From NCBI GenBank assembly GCA_934102255.1, contig CAKOSN010000004.1, forward strand, positions 29,911-93,910: a stretch of 64,000 nt of DNA, read 5' to 3'. The translations under genes and the position numbers were made by a program. The DNA is from an uncultured Bacilli bacterium. Its GTDB lineage: Bacteria > Bacillota_I > Bacilli_A > RF39 > UBA660. Shown piece after piece: positions 22,874-31,212 of the stretch (position 1 is its first letter; every line of letters begins with the position of its first letter). Under the pieces are notes generated by a model. The model was not told where the DNA came from, did no database searches, and saw only the letters and a list, made by a program, of their open reading frames with translations.

Positions 22874-23142
22874 TAAGAAAATTTAGACCTATTTCTCTAA
22901 AAAAGGGAAGTGGGTTTTTATTTTTTTTAAAATTCATAAACTGTCATTATAGAGAATAAGTATAAGATTTGTAAGGCAAAAAATTACTATAAGTAAAAAT
23001 ATAATCAAAAATATCTAATTACCAGGGATTGGCACTAAAATAAAGCAAAAAAAGTTTGACAAAGCTTTAAATATTTGATAATATTAAGTCCCAATGGTAA
23101 ATAGCATCTATTATGTATGTTGCAGGGATTATAAGCTGAAAT

Positions 23143-23171
23143 TTGACAAATGTAAACTTTCGTGCTATAAT
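23143..23171 (+). promoter_or_regulatory. consensus sigma-A type promoter
   Basis: TTGACA (23143-23148), a 17-nt spacer and TATAAT (23166-23171). Confidence 0.6.
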
Positions 23172-23207
23172 CAGAGGTATCAAAGGGTTTTATAGGGGGA
23201 ATTGGTT

Positions 23208-23630
23208 ATGAAAGGTTTTGTTTTAGATTATACAAACGAAAATGAGTATCACAAACTAGAAAGAGCATTAAAAAAATATAACATGCTTGCTTATAAGAAA
23301 TTAAATTTTGAATATTATCCTGATTTGAGGGATGGTAAATTTGTTGGTGAATTAGTTTCTCAAAATAAGAGTAAACACACTAAGACTTATGAGTTAAAAT
23401 TACCTAGTGATAGAAAATTTGCTCAAATTCACGGTGATGTCAAATTACATTACGTTGTATACGAACAAGAAGAAATTGTTATGTTGGATACTATTACACC
23501 ATCAAGTATTTTACTTGAAGGACATCAATCAGAACTTGCAACATATAAAGGTGTTATGATATCTAAAGAAAATGCTTCAAAAGACATGTTTAAAATTGAT
23601 TTATTAAATATGTTACAAAATAATAAGTAG
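23208..23630 (+). CDS. hypothetical protein
   Basis: GGGGGA RBS precedes ATG 23208. The central YELKLPSDRKFAQIHGDVKLHYVVYEQEEIVMLDTITP loosely resembles a RelE/ParE-like core, but no partner gene is present. Confidence 0.45.
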   Translation: MKGFVLDYTNENEYHKLERALKKYNMLAYKKLNFEYYPDLRDGKFVGELVSQNKSKHTKTYELKLPSDRKFAQIHGDVKLHYVVYEQEEIVMLDTITPSSILLEGHQSELATYKGVMISKENASKDMFKIDLLNMLQNNK

Positions 23631-23719
23631 TGATACTTATTTTTTTTAAGCTTTTTGCTAAAAAGTTATTGCAAGAAAGGCTTATTTATGATATATTTAA
23701 TTAGTCGAAAGAAATGAAT

Positions 23720-23796
23720 GGACCCTTAGCTCAATCGGTTAGAGCAATCGGCTCATAACCGATGGGTTGTAGGTTCGAGTCCTACAGGGTCCACCA
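23720..23796 (+). tRNA. tRNA with CAT anticodon (Met, or Ile2 if lysidine-modified)
   Basis: Cloverleaf with acceptor GGACCCT/AGGGTCC, anticodon loop CTCATAA, T-arm GTAGGTTCGAGTCCTAC and an encoded CCA. Confidence 0.9.
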
Positions 23797-23809
23797 TTCT
23801 TTAATAATC

Positions 23810-23894
23810 GCGGGTATGGCGGAATTGGTAGACGCACTAGACTTAGGATCTAGCGGAGAGATCCATGGGGGTTCAAGTCCCTTTACCCGCACCA
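23810..23894 (+). tRNA. tRNA-Leu (TAG anticodon)
   Basis: Acceptor GCGGGTA/TACCCGC, anticodon loop CTTAGGA, a long variable arm, T-loop GGTTCAAGTCC and an encoded CCA. Confidence 0.9.
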
Positions 23895-23904
23895 GATAGA
23901 AATT

Positions 23905-23931
23905 AAAGTCCTTGTAAAAGGGCTTTTTTTG
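23905..23931 (+). terminator. rho-independent terminator after the tRNA pair
   Basis: AGTCCTT-gtaa-AAGGGCT followed by a T-run. Confidence 0.6.
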
Positions 23932-24141
23932 TTGCACAATTTTACTTTAATAATTCATGCTGACATTTTTAGCCTCCAGTATTTATAATACTATTCTTAA
24001 TACCGCTCTTTATATGAAAAGACTCATAACCAAACTTATCATAACCATAGCTAATAATTATTTTTCTAAACTAGTAATCTGATATATACTTTAAATAGGA
24101 TATGAAAATATTCTAATCTTAAAAAGGAAAGAAGATATATA

Positions 24142-25688: not shown

Positions 25689-26138
25689 ATGAAAAAAAAT
25701 TATAAGAAAAATATATTTAATTTTTTATTTTTAATATTTACTACTTTTATATTATTTGGAAATACTGTACTAGCCGAGGATGTTTCTGATTTAGCGTTTT
25801 GTTCATCAAATGGTGTTAAACTAGCTTTAAAAATTGTTGGCTATGCTATATTTGTTGTTAAAATAGTAATACCTATAGTATTAATTGTTTATGGTACCAT
25901 CGATGTAACTAAGGCTGTTCTTGATGCTAAAGACGGTTTACAAAAAAACTTAATTCAATTTGCTAAAAGATGTATTGCGGCTATCCTAATTTTTATGGCT
26001 CCTGGTATTATTAATGGTATTTTTAACATGGTAATTGACGGCTATGAAGAATCAACTAATAATCCTAGTGAATATAAAGATTGCTTTACTTGTCTTTTCA
26101 ATCCTAATAAATGTGATGTTAAAAGATATGGTGAGTAG
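25689..26138 (+). CDS. secreted/membrane protein with a signal peptide, two TM helices and a Cys-rich tail (VirB2/TrbC pilin-like topology)
   Basis: Signal peptide ending VLAEDV, helices IVGYAIFVVKIVIPIVLIVYG and CIAAILIFMAPGIINGIF, and C-terminal CFTCLFNPNKC. Confidence 0.5.
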   Translation: MKKNYKKNIFNFLFLIFTTFILFGNTVLAEDVSDLAFCSSNGVKLALKIVGYAIFVVKIVIPIVLIVYGTIDVTKAVLDAKDGLQKNLIQFAKRCIAAILIFMAPGIINGIFNMVIDGYEESTNNPSEYKDCFTCLFNPNKCDVKRYGE

Positions 26139-26156
26139 TCTTAGTATGGAGAAAAT

Positions 26157-26933
26157 ATGTATCTAAAAGTAATGGAAATATTTTTATATTTTTTAGTAGC
26201 TAGTTTTCTTGGTTATACAATGGAAGTAATTAAATGTAGTATAGATACCAAAAAACTAGTAAATAGAGGCTTTCTATTCGGACCAATCTGCCCAATTTAT
26301 GGTGTTGGTTTTGTCCTTATTACTTGGCTTCTAACTAAATATGAAAATGATTTAATTGTCCTTTTTTTAATGGGAGCTTTAATAACTAGTGCGGTTGAAT
26401 ATTATACTAGCTATATCTTAGAGGTAATATTTCATAATCGCTGGTGGGATTATTCTTATCGTAAAGATAATATAAATGGGCGTATTTGCTTGAAAAATTC
26501 TATCCTTTTTGGAGTAGGAACTTGTTTTATAATTAAAGTTATTAACCCTTTAATATATCAACTTAGAGCTTTCTTAAGTGATAAATTAATTATTGTTTTA
26601 GGAAGTATTCTTTTAGTAATATTTATTTTAGATATGATTTTCTCTTGTATCATAGCATATAATCTTCGTCATCGTATTATTATTGCTGAAGAATTAAAAA
26701 GTGCTAAATTAAGAATGATACCAACGCTTTTAGAACGAAAATATAAAGAAGAAATTACTCATTTGAAGTTTGTAAAAAATAGATTATTTAATGCTTTCCC
26801 TGATATTTGGAAAGACAGTAAAAAAGAGCAAGAACTTATTACTAAAATCAAAGCCAAAGATAAAGAAACGAAGAAAAAATACAAAAAAAACGGTAAAATT
26901 AAGAAAAAAATGTCAAAAAAGTCAAAAAAATGA
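26157..26933 (+). CDS. polytopic membrane protein of the 'putative ABC-transporter type IV' (CmpB/DUF1113-like) family with a Lys-rich tail
   Basis: GFLFGPICPIYGVG and EYYTSYILEVIFHNRWWDYS match the family signature. The C-terminus is a KKKYKKNGKIKKKMSKKSKK tail. Confidence 0.6.
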   Translation: MYLKVMEIFLYFLVASFLGYTMEVIKCSIDTKKLVNRGFLFGPICPIYGVGFVLITWLLTKYENDLIVLFLMGALITSAVEYYTSYILEVIFHNRWWDYSYRKDNINGRICLKNSILFGVGTCFIIKVINPLIYQLRAFLSDKLIIVLGSILLVIFILDMIFSCIIAYNLRHRIIIAEELKSAKLRMIPTLLERKYKEEITHLKFVKNRLFNAFPDIWKDSKKEQELITKIKAKDKETKKKYKKNGKIKKKMSKKSKK

Positions 26934-27003: not shown

Positions 27004-29016
27004 ATGCACAAATTGGTAACTATCCAAAGTGATGTTAATGATTGTGGTCCAGCCGTCATTTATAGCTTAGTAAAATACTATCATGGTTACGTTTCTGTGG
27101 AAAAAATTAGATTAGATACAAATTTAAGTAGGGAAGGAGTAACAGCATACGATATCGTCTTGACTTTAGAACGTTACGGCTTCGAAGCTAAAGGTCTAAA
27201 ATTAACGCTAGATGATATCAAAAACGTATCTAGACCAATGATTCTCCATTTTGATTATAAAAAATATAACCATTATGTTTTACTAGTGAAAGTAAAGAAA
27301 GACACTTGTACTATTATGGACCCTAGTAAAGGCTTAGTTAAAATGTCTTTAAATGACTTAAGAAAAGTTTGGACCGGAATTGCTATTAGTGCTATTCCTA
27401 GTAATGCTATTATAAAACTAGATAAGAAAACATCTTTATTTTGCTTGTTAAAAAAATTAATCATTCAAAATAAAAGAGTAGTATTACTTATTAGCATCTT
27501 AGGAATTATATTAAATATTTTGGAATTAATATCTAACTATTACTTACAATCTTTAATTAATTTCTCAAGCTATACTAAAATAGTAAAAATCTTTTTATTC
27601 TTAATAATAGCTAAAACTATAATTGAATATTCTTTCGTTAATTTAAGTCAAGTTTTAAGTAGAAAAATCGACTATACTTTGTTAGATAGCTACCTTACGC
27701 ATTTCTTACACCTCCCACTTCCCAATTTAGAGGGAGCAACATCAGGAAGAACTTTAAAACATATTGAAGATTTACAAATTATTAAAGAAGCTATTTTAGA
27801 ACTTTTATTAAAAGTTGGTCTTACTTTATTACAATTTAGTGGTGGTTTACTTCTTATAATTGTTTTATCTCTTAAATTAAGTATTTTATTTTTAATACTT
27901 GTCTTAGGTTATATTCTTTTAAAATTAATCGAAAACAAGAAAATTAATAAATATACTAACTATCTTCTAAATAAAACAACTGAATATCAAGAAACTTTAG
28001 TAGATACAGTTAAGAGTTATAAAACCATTAAAGACTTAAATAGTGAAGACTTATTTAAAAACTATACAATGCAAAAGAATCTCGATTATTTAGATTATGG
28101 AAAATATTATGCTACTATTTTAAATAAATGGCATAGTTTTGAAAACTTAAATCTAGAACTAGGTAATTTTCTACTTATTAGTGTTGGTTTTCTTTTAAGT
28201 AAGAATGGTAATCTAAACTTAGTTAATCTATTTACTTTTATTACTCTAACTAATTATTTATTCTTTAGTCTTAAAAGTACAATGGATATTATGCCTAAGT
28301 ATTACTATTTAAAACAAAGTTACTTACGAATAAGTGAATTTTTAGACGTTTCTTTAGAGAAAGATAAAGGTCTTATTTTTACCAATGGTGATATTACTTT
28401 TAGTCATGTAAGTTTTACCTATAATAACGGTAATACAGTTATTAAAAATCTAAATCAAGTTATAAAAAAAGGACAAAAAGTTATATTATCTGGAAAAAGT
28501 GGTGCTGGTAAATCAACTCTATGTAAATTATTATATCGCTATTATGAACCTAGTAGAGGAAGTATTATGATTAATAATATTGACATTAAAAATATTAAAT
28601 TATCTAGCCTAAGAGATAATATTGGCTATATTAGTCAAGATGCTGTTTTGTTTAACAATACAATATTAGAAAATATTGTTGGTAAATCTAAATTAGATAT
28701 TAATAAATTAAACCAAGTTATTAGTGTCTGTAAATTAGAAAAACTGATAAATAAATTACCTAATCATTTAGAAACTAATTTAAAAGAACAGAGTAATAAT
28801 ATATCGGGTGGTGAATCAGAACGAATAATTCTTGCTCGTAGTCTTTATAACTTAAAGCCAATTATGATTTTAGATGAAGCCTTAAGTCAGGTAGATATTA
28901 CCACAGAAAAAGAAATAATAGAAAATATAAAAAATAATTATCCGGCTTGTACTTTAATTTATATAACCCATAAAGATGTTAAAGAAATCTTCACATCGGA
29001 AATAAGTTTATCTTGA
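27004..29016 (+). CDS. bacteriocin ABC exporter with an N-terminal C39 double-glycine peptidase domain
   Basis: AGGAGG RBS precedes ATG 27004. It has C39 motifs (QSDVNDCGPAV, later NHYVLL), six TM helices, Walker A GKSGAGKST, signature ISGGESERI and Walker B ILDEALS. Confidence 0.9.
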   Translation: MHKLVTIQSDVNDCGPAVIYSLVKYYHGYVSVEKIRLDTNLSREGVTAYDIVLTLERYGFEAKGLKLTLDDIKNVSRPMILHFDYKKYNHYVLLVKVKKDTCTIMDPSKGLVKMSLNDLRKVWTGIAISAIPSNAIIKLDKKTSLFCLLKKLIIQNKRVVLLISILGIILNILELISNYYLQSLINFSSYTKIVKIFLFLIIAKTIIEYSFVNLSQVLSRKIDYTLLDSYLTHFLHLPLPNLEGATSGRTLKHIEDLQIIKEAILELLLKVGLTLLQFSGGLLLIIVLSLKLSILFLILVLGYILLKLIENKKINKYTNYLLNKTTEYQETLVDTVKSYKTIKDLNSEDLFKNYTMQKNLDYLDYGKYYATILNKWHSFENLNLELGNFLLISVGFLLSKNGNLNLVNLFTFITLTNYLFFSLKSTMDIMPKYYYLKQSYLRISEFLDVSLEKDKGLIFTNGDITFSHVSFTYNNGNTVIKNLNQVIKKGQKVILSGKSGAGKSTLCKLLYRYYEPSRGSIMINNIDIKNIKLSSLRDNIGYISQDAVLFNNTILENIVGKSKLDINKLNQVISVCKLEKLINKLPNHLETNLKEQSNNISGGESERIILARSLYNLKPIMILDEALSQVDITTEKEIIENIKNNYPACTLIYITHKDVKEIFTSEISLS

Positions 29017-29039
29017 TAAAGAAAGGAAAAAAATTAAAT

Positions 29040-29177
29040 ATGATATTAAAAAATGAAGAATTAAAAAATGTTTATGGAGGCGGTATGTCATTCGGCTTTA
29101 TTGCTGGTTTAGTTGGACTAGGGGCTTTTCTAATCGGCGTCTTAGATGGTATTATGCGCCCCTTATCTTGTCATTAA
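29040..29177 (+). CDS. double-glycine-leader bacteriocin precursor, peptide A (45 aa)
   Basis: MILKNEELKNVYGG | GMSFGFIAGLVGLGAFLIGVLDGIMRPLSCH. The leader fits the EL..(I/V).GG consensus. The hydrophobic core has GxxxG motifs. Not in the ORF track (too short). Confidence 0.75.
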   Translation: MILKNEELKNVYGGGMSFGFIAGLVGLGAFLIGVLDGIMRPLSCH

Positions 29178-29201
29178 AATATTGTTAGAAAGGAATTAAA
29201 T

Positions 29202-29369
29202 ATGATATTAAATGTTACAGAATTAAAAGAAATAAAAGGAGGAGCCAGCAGTATTCTAAGTGCTACTTTCTTTAATGCCTTAGCAAGGAGTCTAAGTACT
29301 CTTACTGATATTGGTAGAAGTCTTGGTACTTCTATTAGAATGCTTTTTTCAAGGAGAGTTTGTAAATGA
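29202..29369 (+). CDS. double-glycine-leader bacteriocin precursor, peptide B (55 aa)
   Basis: MILNVTELKEIKGG | ASSILSATFFNALARSLSTLTDIGRSLGTSIRMLFSRRVCK. AAAGGA RBS. The core is cationic and amphipathic with GRSLG. Not in the ORF track. Confidence 0.75.
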   Translation: MILNVTELKEIKGGASSILSATFFNALARSLSTLTDIGRSLGTSIRMLFSRRVCK

Positions 29370-29598
29370 TAAAATGGTTAATTAATTTTTTAAGAAAAAT
29401 TTATTATATTATTTAAATTTATTTTAATAATATTAGAAGGGATTAACTATGAGTAGAAATTTTTATACTTTTATAAGATGCTTATGCTATGTTATTAATT
29501 ATTTAAGATGGTAATTAATAAAATTTAGATTTAGAAAAAGATAAATAAGTGAAAAATAACTATCTTTATGCTATACTTTAAAATAGAGGTGGTTAAAT

Positions 29599-31212
29599 GT
29601 GAATAAAATAAATAATAAAGGTTTTATTGCAACAACACTTATTTATTCTTTTTTACTTTTGTTTGCAACTTTGGTAACGGTTATTATTACTAATTATAAT
29701 TATTATCGTAATACTCTTAATAAATATAATAAAAATATTAACGATGCTTTAAATAACATAGTAAATAATAAATATGTTACTTTATATAATGAAATTGATA
29801 ATAGTGATTTTGAAACTAAAAATGTTTCATGGCATACTGGTTCAAGTACAACTAATTTTAATAACAATGGCAATCTTGGTTATGATTGTAATCAAAGCGA
29901 TTGTACTAACAAAAACGGCTCTTATCAAACGGATTATACCAATGCTGGGGGTAATAACTCTTTTAGATTTGCTCCCAAAACTAATAGTATCGTTAATTCT
30001 AATGTGTTTAGTTGTATTGCCAATAATTATTATTATGTAAGTTATGATGTTTTTACTAGTGGCGCCTTAAGTGGGGGCAATATTGGCATATATAATAATT
30101 CTGGCCGTTTTGAAGTATCTGAATCTTTAAATTATGGTTTTCAAAATTGGAGTCGTCGTGGTTTTATTGGTAAAGTCTCTTCCGGTGGTAATTGTGTTTT
30201 TAGAATTGACTATCAAAATAGCGGTGGCGGGGCTGATATTAGAATGAATATTGATAACGTTGCCGTTATAAATATTACTGAACTATTAAGTAAGGCCGGA
30301 ATTAGTATTCCTGATTCCGGGGGTAATGAATTAAAAACTAAGTATAGTCTGGCTCTTACTGAGGCTCAATCTGATGCTAAAATTACCCATTTTAATGTTT
30401 CAACAGTATATGATATTGATGCTCTAAAAAATGCTAATAATACAACTTATAACTTTGTTTATATGGGCGGTACTCAGGAATTTACGGCTCCAAGTGATGG
30501 TACTTATCTTTTAGAAGTCTGGGGCGCCCAAGGCGGAAATCAATATGAGGGTCGCGGGGGCTACGGCGGTTATTCTTATGGTGAATATAAACTTAATAAA
30601 GGTCAAAAACTTTATGTAAAAGTTGGTTATGGTGCCCCAGATTGGTCTTTAGATGGTGGCGGTGCCACTTCGATTCAAAATTACCTTATTGGCGATGGTC
30701 AATTAAGAAATTATAAAAATAATATAGGTAACGTTATCATTGTTGCTGGCGGTGGTGGCGCTGGTGAAAGAGAAAACGGTGGTAATGGTGGCGGTTACCT
30801 AGGAGGTACTGGGTATCAAAAATCGACCGGCTATGAATATTATGCTGAAGGTGGTACTCAATATAGTGGAGGCCGTGGTAGAACCGCCGCCGGTCATAAT
30901 AACGGTGGCAATTTAAATGGTGATTTTGGTATCGGGGGTAGTGGTTATAGCCCAACCGATTCTGGTCCTAATGGCGGTGAAGGCTACTATGGTGGCGGTG
31001 GGGTTACCTATGCCGGCTCCGGCGGCGGCGGCTCTGGTTATATTGGCAACGGTAACCTTACTAATAAAGGTATGTATTGTTATCTTTGTAGTGAAAGTAA
31101 TGATGTAAATAACAAAACTACGACAACTTCTTGTTATGAAGAAAACCCAACCAAAAATTGTGCCAAAAAAGGAAGTGGTTACGCTAGAATTACTCTTATC
31201 GGCGCCCGATAA
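29599..31212 (+). CDS. signal-anchored surface protein: pilin-like N-terminus, CBM4_9-like domain and a C-terminal glycine-rich domain
   Basis: GAGGTGG RBS plus GTG start. N-terminal KGFIATTLIYSFLLLFATLV, NSDFE...W (CBM-like), then FTAPSDGTYLLEVWGAQGGN...GGYGGYSYG...VAGGGGAG...GSGGGGSGY. Confidence 0.75.
   Translation: MNKINNKGFIATTLIYSFLLLFATLVTVIITNYNYYRNTLNKYNKNINDALNNIVNNKYVTLYNEIDNSDFETKNVSWHTGSSTTNFNNNGNLGYDCNQSDCTNKNGSYQTDYTNAGGNNSFRFAPKTNSIVNSNVFSCIANNYYYVSYDVFTSGALSGGNIGIYNNSGRFEVSESLNYGFQNWSRRGFIGKVSSGGNCVFRIDYQNSGGGADIRMNIDNVAVINITELLSKAGISIPDSGGNELKTKYSLALTEAQSDAKITHFNVSTVYDIDALKNANNTTYNFVYMGGTQEFTAPSDGTYLLEVWGAQGGNQYEGRGGYGGYSYGEYKLNKGQKLYVKVGYGAPDWSLDGGGATSIQNYLIGDGQLRNYKNNIGNVIIVAGGGGAGERENGGNGGGYLGGTGYQKSTGYEYYAEGGTQYSGGRGRTAAGHNNGGNLNGDFGIGGSGYSPTDSGPNGGEGYYGGGGVTYAGSGGGGSGYIGNGNLTNKGMYCYLCSESNDVNNKTTTTSCYEENPTKNCAKKGSGYARITLIGAR

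What the first reader, a model, noticed from the sequence alone, without database searches (positions are those of the whole stretch)
29040..29369. Two unannotated double-glycine-leader peptide genes: a likely new two-peptide (class IIb) bacteriocin
Two short ORFs with RBSs lie immediately after the C39 ABC exporter and are below the ORF-track cut-off.
- Peptide A: MILKNEELKNVYGG|GMSFGFIAGLVGLGAFLIGVLDGIMRPLSCH
- Peptide B: MILNVTELKEIKGG|ASSILSATFFNALARSLSTLTDIGRSLGTSIRMLFSRRVCK

Both leaders are 14 aa, start with MIL, and fit the E-L-x-x-(V/I)-x-G-G cleavage consensus of C39 peptidases. The predicted cores are a hydrophobic 31-mer and a cationic amphipathic 41-mer. Both carry GxxxG-type motifs (GFIAG and GVLDG in A; GRSLG in B), the helix-helix interaction hallmark of two-peptide bacteriocins. 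Each core has one Cys at the penultimate position (…SCH and …VCK), so an intermolecular disulfide is possible. I do not recognise either core sequence.
Basis: partly seen in the sequence, partly recalled or inferred. Interest (0 to 1): 0.75.

Follow-up and report, generated by a model that had tools for sequence, protein, structure and literature searches.

The report
Exported peptide pair, likely two-peptide bacteriocin
Two small genes behind a peptide-cutting export pump in an uncultured human-gut bacterium are real and always occur as a pair, so they are most likely a new member of the known two-peptide bacteriocin class, though killing activity is untested.

Summary
Both ORFs exist exactly as described: pepA at 29040-29177 and pepB at 29202-29369. 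Each has a ribosome-binding site and a textbook 14-residue double-glycine leader. They start 23 nt after a C39-peptidase ABC exporter whose catalytic Cys/His/Asp align with PCAT1.

They are real genes. Core dN/dS is 0.02-0.2 against sister species, with synonymous sites near saturation.

The two-peptide reading has strong comparative support. pepB-type genes directly follow pepA-type genes in 73 of 73 testable metagenome loci, and a C39-ABC gene lies upstream in 50 of 50. Every pepA and nearly every pepB keeps one GxxxG motif and one C-terminal Cys.

The pair is not a one-off. It belongs to a large, undescribed family in uncultured gut and rumen Bacilli or Mollicutes-like MAGs. A few pepA homologues are already auto-named "class IIb bacteriocin, lactobin A/cerein 7B family". 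The window pepA scores just below that cut-off, and pepB matches no curated family.

Relatives carry a fuller cassette: ABC, accessory protein, A, B, and a small membrane protein whose tail is homologous to pepB. This genus lacks the accessory and third genes.

The cassette is chromosomal, often just upstream of rpsU-yqeY, and absent from plasmid and phage collections. Antimicrobial activity, immunity and a disulfide link remain untested.

Verdict: new member of a known kind, moderate interest.

The parts
27004..29016 (+). C39-peptidase ABC exporter (670 aa). It would cleave the leader after GG and export both peptides.
   Evidence: Pfam Peptidase_C39 3.7e-30, ABC_membrane 4.2e-19, ABC_tran 2e-28. 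The peptidase domain aligns with PCAT1 4RY2 (1.6e-19), and the Q/C (..QSDVNDCGP..), H (..NHYVLL..) and D (..IMDP..) positions are conserved. The 670-aa start is the one used by gene callers. It falls below the curated cut-offs of TIGR01193 (286 vs 524 bits) and NF045998 (266 vs 500).
29021..29027 (+). Ribosome-binding site of pepA (GAAAGGA)
   Evidence: Read directly from the sequence. The motif is conserved in sister species.
29040..29081 (+). pepA double-glycine leader (14 aa, MILKNEELKNVYGG)
   Evidence: Translation. The L-12, E-8, L-7, V-4, G-2, G-1 register is seen directly. The leader evolves faster than the core (dN/dS 0.2-1.0 against 0.02-0.18).
29082..29177 (+). pepA core, a hydrophobic 31-mer with GVLDG and a C-terminal ..RPLSCH, plus the stop codon
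   Evidence: Core dN/dS is 0.02-0.18 with dS 0.9-2.9. The family motif G[VIL][IFL]DG and a C-terminal Cys occur in 52/52 distinct cores. There are at least 128 clusters at 90% identity. TIGR03949 scores 19.9 bits, below the 21.5 cut-off.
29190..29194 (+). Ribosome-binding site of pepB (AAGGA, 7 nt before the ATG)
   Evidence: Read directly from the sequence.
29202..29243 (+). pepB double-glycine leader (14 aa, MILNVTELKEIKGG)
   Evidence: Translation. It has the same register as the pepA leader.
29244..29369 (+). pepB core, a cationic amphipathic 41-mer with the invariant DIGRSLGTSIR and C-terminal ..VCK, plus the stop codon
   Evidence: Core dN/dS is 0.06-0.22. There are 164 clusters at 50% identity at E<=1e-3. 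The GxxxG-type motif occurs in 47/47 distinct cores, and 47/47 have exactly one Cys, near the C-terminus. No Pfam or NCBIfam family matches. AlphaFold2 predicts a helix with core pLDDT 86-90.
29449..29514 (+). Conserved 21-codon micro-ORF (MSRNFYTFIRCLCYVINYLRW) with its own GAAGGGA ribosome-binding site. Its function is unknown. It occupies the slot where relatives carry the third, pepB-like membrane protein.
   Evidence: It is present in L018-L022 and L024 and absent in L013/L023. The central FYTFIRCLCYV is invariant, with up to 5 synonymous and 0 non-synonymous changes (read from the sequences). It is not a significant match to the third-protein HMM, so membership is uncertain.
29549..29577 (+). 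Promoter-like site (GTGAAA-17-TGcTATACT) of the next gene. It marks the likely downstream limit of the peptide operon.
   Evidence: Promoter scan. The same -10 region is conserved in all sister species.
25689..26933 (+). Two same-strand upstream membrane genes: p149 (signal peptide plus TM helices) and a PF06541 CmpB-like protein. They may be co-transcribed with the exporter. A link to the peptide system is unproven.
   Evidence: PF06541 1.2e-49. They are syntenic in the 7 close species. No CmpB or p149 homologue lies next to the exporter in the more distant metagenome cassettes; the only hit is a CmpB-like ORF in L107, just upstream of the exporter. The one paper found lists PF06541 only as an untested transporter candidate.

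Best explanation
pepA and pepB are the two precursors of an unmodified, class IIb-like two-peptide bacteriocin. They are co-transcribed with their own C39-peptidase ABC exporter.

Proposed mechanism:
1. The exporter's N-terminal cysteine protease recognises the 14-residue amphipathic leader.
2. It cuts after Gly-Gly and exports a hydrophobic 31-mer (A, 3149.8 Da) and a cationic amphipathic 41-mer (B, 4449.2 Da).
3. The two helices are proposed to pack through their invariant GxxxG motifs (GVLDG in A, GRSLG in B) in a target membrane and permeabilise it.
4. The invariant C-terminal Cys of each may stabilise the pair as a disulfide.

Shown here: gene reality, leader fit, an intact protease triad, obligate A-B pairing, and motif and Cys invariance.

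Inferred: cleavage, export, helix-helix pairing, antimicrobial action and any disulfide.

In relatives, the producer is probably protected by a third small membrane protein whose outward-facing tail copies the C-terminal half of pepB. In this genus that gene is missing, so immunity is unassigned.
For: - ORFs, ribosome-binding sites and leaders are confirmed.
- The exporter has C39+TMD+NBD domains, and its catalytic Cys/His/Asp align with PCAT1, LahT and ComA.
- Both cores are under purifying selection.
- A and B are adjacent in all 9 GTDB species found and in all metagenome loci fetched by exact peptide look-up.
- pepB follows pepA in 72/73 testable loci, and the 73rd has it overlapping. The ABC gene is upstream in 50/50.
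- Family-wide, GxxxG and a C-terminal Cys occur in 52/52 pepA and 47/47 pepB cores. Charges are complementary, with medians of +1 and +3.
- Of 23 pepA homologues, 19 match TIGR03949 and 10 match PF10439 at E<=0.01. Sources name P0046 and P0067 class IIb bacteriocins.
- Relatives show the canonical class IIb layout: ABC, accessory, A, B, small TM protein.
- The third protein is homologous to the C-terminal half of pepB (hhalign probability 93%, E 2.9e-7).
- No modification enzyme lies next to the genes in the window.
Against: - No activity, expression or mass data exist, and no cultured host was found (only MAGs).
- The window has no accessory protein and no recognisable immunity gene.
- No quorum-sensing kinase or regulator lies next to the operon.
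- The cassette is vertically inherited. It sits in a conserved housekeeping position, upstream of rpsU-yqeY in 23/42 loci, even where the exporter is only about 30% identical. It is absent from plasmids, phages and viral contigs. That is unusual for antagonism genes, which tend to be patchy.
- pepB matches no bacteriocin model, and pepA is below the curated cut-off.
- An extracellular disulfide is doubtful in a strict anaerobe's reducing habitat (general knowledge).
Confidence: 0.6

Rival explanations
1. The peptides form an endogenous small-membrane-protein system rather than a weapon. pepA, pepB and (in relatives) the membrane-anchored pepB paralogue would assemble in or on the producer's own membrane. 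The complex could be, for example, a channel, an envelope or division-related complex, or an autolysis/sporulation factor. It would be kept by the whole clade for a physiological role.
For: - The cassette is conserved clade-wide and lies upstream of rpsU-yqeY (23/42 loci) or ftsA-ftsZ, even at about 30% exporter identity.
- Both cores are under strong purifying selection.
- It is absent from plasmids, phages and viral contigs.
- The third gene is a leaderless, TM-anchored homologue of pepB with the same GxxxG-T-x-I-R...C tail. That reads naturally as a subunit.
- This genus keeps A and B although the putative immunity gene is gone.
Against: - I know of no precedent for double-glycine-exported peptide pairs with a housekeeping role.
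- All characterised substrates of C39 exporters of this type are bacteriocins or pheromones (established knowledge).
- pepA resembles class IIb models.
- Core bacteriocin loci do exist in some lineages.
Confidence: 0.2
2. The two peptides are independent one-peptide (class IId) bacteriocins that merely share an exporter.
For: Each has its own ribosome-binding site and leader. Many C39 exporters serve several unrelated peptides (established knowledge).
Against: - The order and adjacency are fixed in 73/73 loci and 9/9 species, with no A-only or B-only locus seen where testable.
- The physico-chemistry is complementary, and each has a single invariant GxxxG.
- Spacing is tight at 0-24 nt, often overlapping, which suggests coupled, equimolar translation.
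Confidence: 0.1
3. The peptides are exported signalling peptides (ComC/BlpC-type pheromones) or other non-lytic effectors.
For: Double-glycine leaders and C39 exporters also serve pheromones, for example ComA, the second-best structural relative. The peptides are conserved across the clade, and the window has no immunity gene.
Against: - No histidine kinase or response regulator lies next to the operon in the window, and none was seen in the annotated relatives apart from a response-regulator gene about 3.5 kb downstream in L029.
- The cores are 31-41 aa, one of them a transmembrane-like helix, which is unlike known pheromones.
- The obligate pair and the GxxxG motifs point to membrane insertion.
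Confidence: 0.07

Closest known systems
Class IIb two-peptide bacteriocins (lactococcin G, plantaricin EF/JK, and the lactobin A/cerein 7B family TIGR03949)
   Same: Two adjacent genes each carry a double-glycine leader. A dedicated C39 ABC exporter is present. Each peptide has GxxxG motifs, and one peptide is hydrophobic while the other is cationic and amphipathic. Relatives add an accessory protein and a small membrane protein downstream. pepA homologues hit TIGR03949 and PF10439.
   Different: - Core sequences are unrelated beyond the leader and Gly-rich stretch. The C-terminal IGVxDGxxRPLxC and DIGRSLGTxIR motifs were not found in any paper searched.
- Each peptide has one invariant C-terminal Cys.
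- The structural genes lie downstream of the exporter.
- There is no quorum-sensing module.
- The cassette is chromosomally fixed across a clade.
- The window lacks the accessory and immunity genes.
- The candidate immunity protein in relatives is a pepB paralogue, not an Abi/CAAX-type or LagC-type protein.
Peptidase-containing ABC transporters PCAT1 (4RY2), LahT, ComA
   Same: The domain order is the same, and the Cys/His/Asp protease residues are conserved.
   Different: Identity is only about 30% in the protease domain. The protein falls below the curated cut-offs of TIGR01193 and NF045998.
Mycoplasma Mbov_0121 (C39 ABC) / MAG1140 gene pair (NCBIfam NF045998, NF045999)
   Same: The window exporter's second-best NCBIfam hit is NF045998. 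Accessory proteins of related cassettes give weak full-length hits to NF045999 (3/13, E about 3e-4).
   Different: All scores are far below the cut-offs. The window has no accessory gene. No function is published for the Mycoplasma pair.
ComC/BlpC double-glycine pheromones
   Same: The leader type and the exporter type are the same.
   Different: There is no kinase or regulator. The cores are longer and membrane-like, and they come as an obligate pair.

Membership tests
Class IIb (two-peptide) bacteriocin | Two precursor genes adjacent in one operon | tested here: met
   The genes are 24 nt apart on the same strand. They are adjacent in 9/9 species and 73/73 testable loci.
Class IIb (two-peptide) bacteriocin | Double-glycine leader on both precursors | tested here: met
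   Both have 14-aa leaders with L-12, E-8, L-7, V/I-4 and GG. The leader is conserved across the family.
Class IIb (two-peptide) bacteriocin | Dedicated C39-peptidase ABC exporter with catalytic Cys/His | tested here: met
Class IIb (two-peptide) bacteriocin | Accessory (export) protein gene in the locus | tested here: not met
   The 64 kb window has no homologue (HMM search). One is present in 41/62 related loci.
Class IIb (two-peptide) bacteriocin | Immunity gene next to the structural genes | tested here: inconclusive
   Relatives carry a 48-60 aa TM protein right after pepB, in at least 43/65 loci. The window has only a conserved 21-aa micro-ORF that does not match it significantly.
Class IIb (two-peptide) bacteriocin | GxxxG helix-helix motifs in both peptides | tested here: met
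   pepA has GMSFG, GFIAG and GVLDG; pepB has GRSLG. The motif is invariant across the family.
Class IIb (two-peptide) bacteriocin | Antimicrobial activity that needs both peptides in about equal amounts | not testable with these tools
   This needs synthetic peptides or expression.
TIGR03949 class IIb bacteriocin, lactobin A/cerein 7B family | Score at or above the curated cut-off (21.5 bits) | tested here: not met
   Window pepA scores 19.9 bits, and the match covers the leader plus the Gly-rich part only. The relative L029 pepA scores 23.6 bits. 19/23 relatives match at E<=0.01. pepB does not match; 2/11 relatives match weakly.
Pfam PF10439 Bacteriocin_IIc (double-glycine class II) | Significant match to the model | tested here: not met
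   Window pepA and pepB have no hit. 10/23 pepA relatives match at E<=0.01. 0/11 pepB relatives match.
TIGR01193 peptide cleavage/export ABC transporter | Score at or above the curated cut-off (523.85 bits) | tested here: not met
   The score is 286 bits, full length. The domain architecture and catalytic residues are nevertheless met.
NF045998 Mbov_0121 family peptidase ABC transporter | Score at or above the curated cut-off (500 bits) | tested here: not met
   266 bits.

The most novel reading that the evidence does not exclude
The pair is one face of an ancient, vertically inherited three-peptide system of uncultured Mollicutes-like gut Bacilli. It comprises exported pepA, exported pepB, and a membrane-anchored, leaderless pepB paralogue that shows the same GxxxG-T-x-I-R...Cys tail outside the cell. 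There are two possible readings. In one, the anchored paralogue protects the producer by mimicry: it captures pepA through GxxxG packing and/or the conserved Cys, so that no active A-B complex forms. I know of no such immunity mechanism for class II bacteriocins. In the other, all three form a clade-specific membrane complex with a physiological role, and are not bacteriocins.
Probability: 0.2. Interest if true: 0.7.

Novelty: new member of a known kind. Interest (0 to 1): 0.45.

Why it matters
If the peptides are active, they would be the first bacteriocin system assigned to a whole group of uncultured, reduced-genome gut Bacilli ('Mycoplasma sp. CAG:956' relatives and other Bacilli/Mollicutes MAGs). 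That would give a handle on how these common but unculturable gut members compete.

The family offers many natural variants: at least 128 pepA clusters and 164 pepB clusters. The constant features are sharply defined, with one GxxxG and one Cys per peptide, which makes it a convenient model for helix-helix pairing.

The pepB-like anchored third protein suggests a testable immunity-by-mimicry idea.

If the peptides are instead not antimicrobial, the clade-wide fixed position next to rpsU-yqeY would point to an unknown physiological use of double-glycine peptide export.

Tried and rejected
- PDB sequence searches with both peptide profiles gave only chance hits.
- Full-text search for the core motifs (RPLKCN, DIGRSLGT, GVIDGY and others) found nothing.
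- A search for two-peptide bacteriocins with an intermolecular disulfide gave no relevant paper.
- 'RF39' plus 'bacteriocin' gave nothing relevant.
- The IIBacFinder gut atlas paper does not mention this clade, and its supplements are not held, so I cannot tell whether these peptides are listed there.
- Plasmid, phage and viral-contig searches gave no match, so a mobile-element origin is rejected.
- The idea that the 21-aa micro-ORF is a remnant of the third protein rests on a shared TFIRxL string. The third-protein HMM does not score it, so I dropped it as a claim.
- CmpB (PF06541) or p149 as immunity or accessory proteins: no CmpB or p149 homologue lies next to the exporter in the more distant cassettes, apart from one CmpB-like ORF just upstream of it in L107, and no functional literature exists. 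This stays speculative.
- No intrinsic terminator was predicted after pepB.
- AlphaFold2 of pepB gave one long helix at moderate confidence, which adds little.
- A taxonomy look-up of 'Mycoplasma sp. CAG:956' failed.

Full report
**1. Observation**

- pepA is 29040-29177 (45 aa).
- pepB is 29202-29369 (55 aa).
- Each is preceded by a purine-rich ribosome-binding site.

Both 14-residue leaders fit the double-glycine register: L-12, E-8, L-7, V/I-4, G-2, G-1.

The ORF ending at 29016 has Peptidase_C39, ABC_membrane and ABC_tran domains. Its long reading frame overlaps the previous gene. The start used by gene callers in public assemblies is ATG 27004, giving 670 aa. The protease domain aligns with PCAT1, LahT and ComA, and the catalytic Cys, His and Asp are in place.

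The predicted cores behave as described:
- A is a neutral, very hydrophobic 31-mer (GRAVY 1.35).
- B is a +5, pI 11.8 amphipathic 41-mer.

A pattern scan of all six frames finds no other double-glycine-leader ORF in the 64 kb window.

**2. Are they genes?**

The exact peptides are called as genes in more than 100 human-gut metagenome assemblies, always in the same synteny.

Against sister species, the cores have dN/dS of 0.02-0.2 while synonymous sites are near saturation. The leaders evolve faster. These are protein-coding genes under purifying selection.

**3. Organism and spread**

A scan of one genome per GTDB species found pepB homologues in nine species. All are MAGs titled 'uncultured Bacilli bacterium', plus 'Mycoplasma sp. 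CAG:956' and one contig binned to Muribaculaceae, which looks like a mis-binned contig. In all nine, pepA precedes pepB downstream of a C39-ABC gene.

A profile search with pepA found at least 128 clusters at 90% identity. They share a striking C-terminal motif, IGV(I/L)DG(Y/F)xRPL(K/A)C(N/H). Where sources give names they read 'Bacilli bacterium' or 'Mollicutes bacterium'. Two clusters are named 'class IIb bacteriocin, lactobin A/cerein 7B family' and one 'bacteriocin-like protein'.

A full HMMER search with pepB found 164 clusters at 50% identity. Their motif is D(I/L/M)GRSLG(T/S)(A/S)IRR...C.

**4. Is it a pair?**

I scanned metagenome contigs with the pepA motif and fetched 80 loci from human gut, rumen, digesters and sediments. 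HMM annotation of their six-frame translations gave these counts among testable loci:

| Feature | Present |
|---|---|
| pepB directly after pepA | 72/73 (the 73rd, L073, has it overlapping) |
| C39-ABC gene upstream | 50/50 |
| About 145-aa N-terminally anchored accessory protein between exporter and pepA | 41/62 |
| Third small ORF right after pepB | at least 43/65 |

Gaps between A and B are 0-24 nt or overlaps.

Across distinct cores:
- 52/52 pepA and 47/47 pepB keep one GxxxG-type motif.
- All keep a Cys within the last eight residues, and 47/47 pepB have exactly one Cys.
- Median net charges are +1 (A) and +3 (B).

Inside the window alone, the GxxxG counts are barely above shuffles. The family-wide invariance is what gives them weight.

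This is the comparative signature expected of a two-peptide system. It argues against two independent peptides.

**5. The third gene**

In canonical cassettes (for example L025, L027, L030) the ORF after pepB encodes a 48-60 aa protein. It has a short basic N-terminus, one transmembrane helix and a tail ...IFxxGxx(V/L)GT(F/Y)(I/V)Rx(4-7)C.

A profile-profile comparison aligns this tail with the C-terminal half of the pepB core through the terminal Cys (probability 93%, E 2.9e-7, 26 columns). So the third protein is a leaderless, membrane-anchored relative of pepB.

By the positive-inside rule the tail would face outward. That is an inference.

The most economical reading is an immunity protein that mimics pepB and captures pepA. 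A third subunit of a membrane complex is the alternative.

**6. What this window lacks**

HMM searches of the whole window find no accessory homologue and no third-protein homologue. The best hit of the third-protein model is pepB itself.

In the slot after pepB there is a 21-codon ORF at 29449-29514 with its own ribosome-binding site. It is conserved in five related species. Its central FYTFIRCLCYV is invariant despite up to five synonymous changes. It is absent in one sister lineage (L013/L023), and it does not score against the third-protein model. Its role is open.

Upstream, p149 and a PF06541 protein are syntenic in this genus only. No published function links them to bacteriocins.

No kinase or regulator and no modification enzyme lie next to the operon. 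One distant lineage has a SAM methyltransferase inserted between A and B.

**7. Genomic setting**

The cassette sits between pheT...tRNA genes and rpsU-yqeY-yqfD-ybeY-era in the window and its relatives.

In 23 of 42 metagenome loci with enough downstream sequence, rpsU-yqeY follows within 4 kb. Most are within about 0.1-1.3 kb and a few are at 1.8-3.7 kb. In others ftsA-ftsZ follows. This holds even where the exporter is only about 30% identical to the window's (L025/L026).

Neither peptide has a match in the plasmid collection. pepB has none in the phage collection, and the pepA motif has none in IMG/VR contigs.

The cassette is therefore old and vertically inherited in this clade. That is not typical of bacteriocin loci, and it is the main reason I keep a physiological-role rival at 0.2.

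**8. Comparison with known families**

In architecture and peptide chemistry, this works like a class IIb bacteriocin.

Membership by curated models is borderline or negative:

| Protein | Model | Result |
|---|---|---|
| pepA | TIGR03949 | 19.9 bits vs 21.5 cut-off, via the leader and Gly-rich stretch only |
| pepA relatives | TIGR03949 | 19/23 at E<=0.01 |
| pepA relatives | PF10439 | 10/23 at E<=0.01 |
| pepB | any Pfam or NCBIfam family | no match |
| Exporter | TIGR01193 and NF045998 | below the cut-offs |
| Accessory proteins of relatives | Mycoplasma MAG1140 family | weak hits |

No solved structure and no paper in the library contains the motifs. A 2025 atlas of gut class II bacteriocins may well list such peptides, but I could not check its tables.

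**9. Verdict**

The two-peptide, C39-exported nature has strong comparative support. The antimicrobial function, the immunity mechanism and the proposed intermolecular disulfide remain inferences. The pair is one member of a large existing family, not a singular novelty.

- Best explanation: class IIb-like two-peptide bacteriocin (0.6).
- Rivals: endogenous membrane system (0.2), two independent bacteriocins (0.1), signalling peptides (0.07).
- Novelty: new member of a known kind.
- Interest: 0.45. This is lifted somewhat by the clade-wide fixed cassette and the pepB-mimicking third protein, both of which are testable.

Noticed in passing
window 23202-23630 (+), wider block 23047-23956: The 142-aa ORF p142 has no Pfam or Rfam hit. 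It is 100% identical in protein and 98.6-99.5% identical in DNA to sister species whose flanking genes are only 55-90% identical, and all differences are synonymous. This is either a recent sweep or transfer, or constraint at the nucleotide level. It is unexplained.
   Followed up: partly
window 23720-23796 and 23810-23894 (+): tRNA-Met (CAT) and tRNA-Leu (TAG) genes lie here. They explain the right half of the highly conserved block next to p142.
   Followed up: yes
window 29599-31212 (+): A 537-aa protein has an N-terminal membrane anchor and a C-terminal ALK/LTK-type glycine-rich domain (PF12810, 2.9e-23). It has its own conserved promoter-like site. Sister species have a 289-aa version that aligns only with roughly the first 280 residues, ahead of the glycine-rich domain, so the C-terminal part appears to be swapped or lost between species.
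   Followed up: partly
window 29449-29514 (+): A 21-codon micro-ORF (MSRNFYTFIRCLCYVINYLRW) has a ribosome-binding site and is conserved in five species, with synonymous-only changes in its centre. It is absent in one sister lineage. Its function is unknown.
   Followed up: partly
L029 5144-5827, also L030 and L031: In one distant lineage a SAM-dependent methyltransferase (Methyltransf_11/25) is inserted between pepA and pepB. This hints that some family members may be modified.
   Followed up: no
L016 8187-11280: In one strain of a sister species, a serine recombinase (Resolvase/Recombinase), a RhuM-like gene and others sit right after the cassette where rpsU-yqeY normally follows. This looks like a mobile-element insertion at that junction.
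   Followed up: no
window 25689-26138 (+): p149 has a signal peptide and two hydrophobic helices, with only faint similarity to TraA/VirB2-type pilins (E 0.47). It is syntenic with the exporter only in this genus.
   Followed up: partly
L025 6798-7235, L026 1578-2003, L027 4568-4999: The accessory proteins of related cassettes give weak full-length matches to the Mycoplasma MAG1140 family (NF045999). That family's neighbour model, NF045998 (Mbov_0121 C39-ABC), is the window exporter's second-best hit. True mycoplasmas may therefore carry a related, unstudied export pair.
   Followed up: partly
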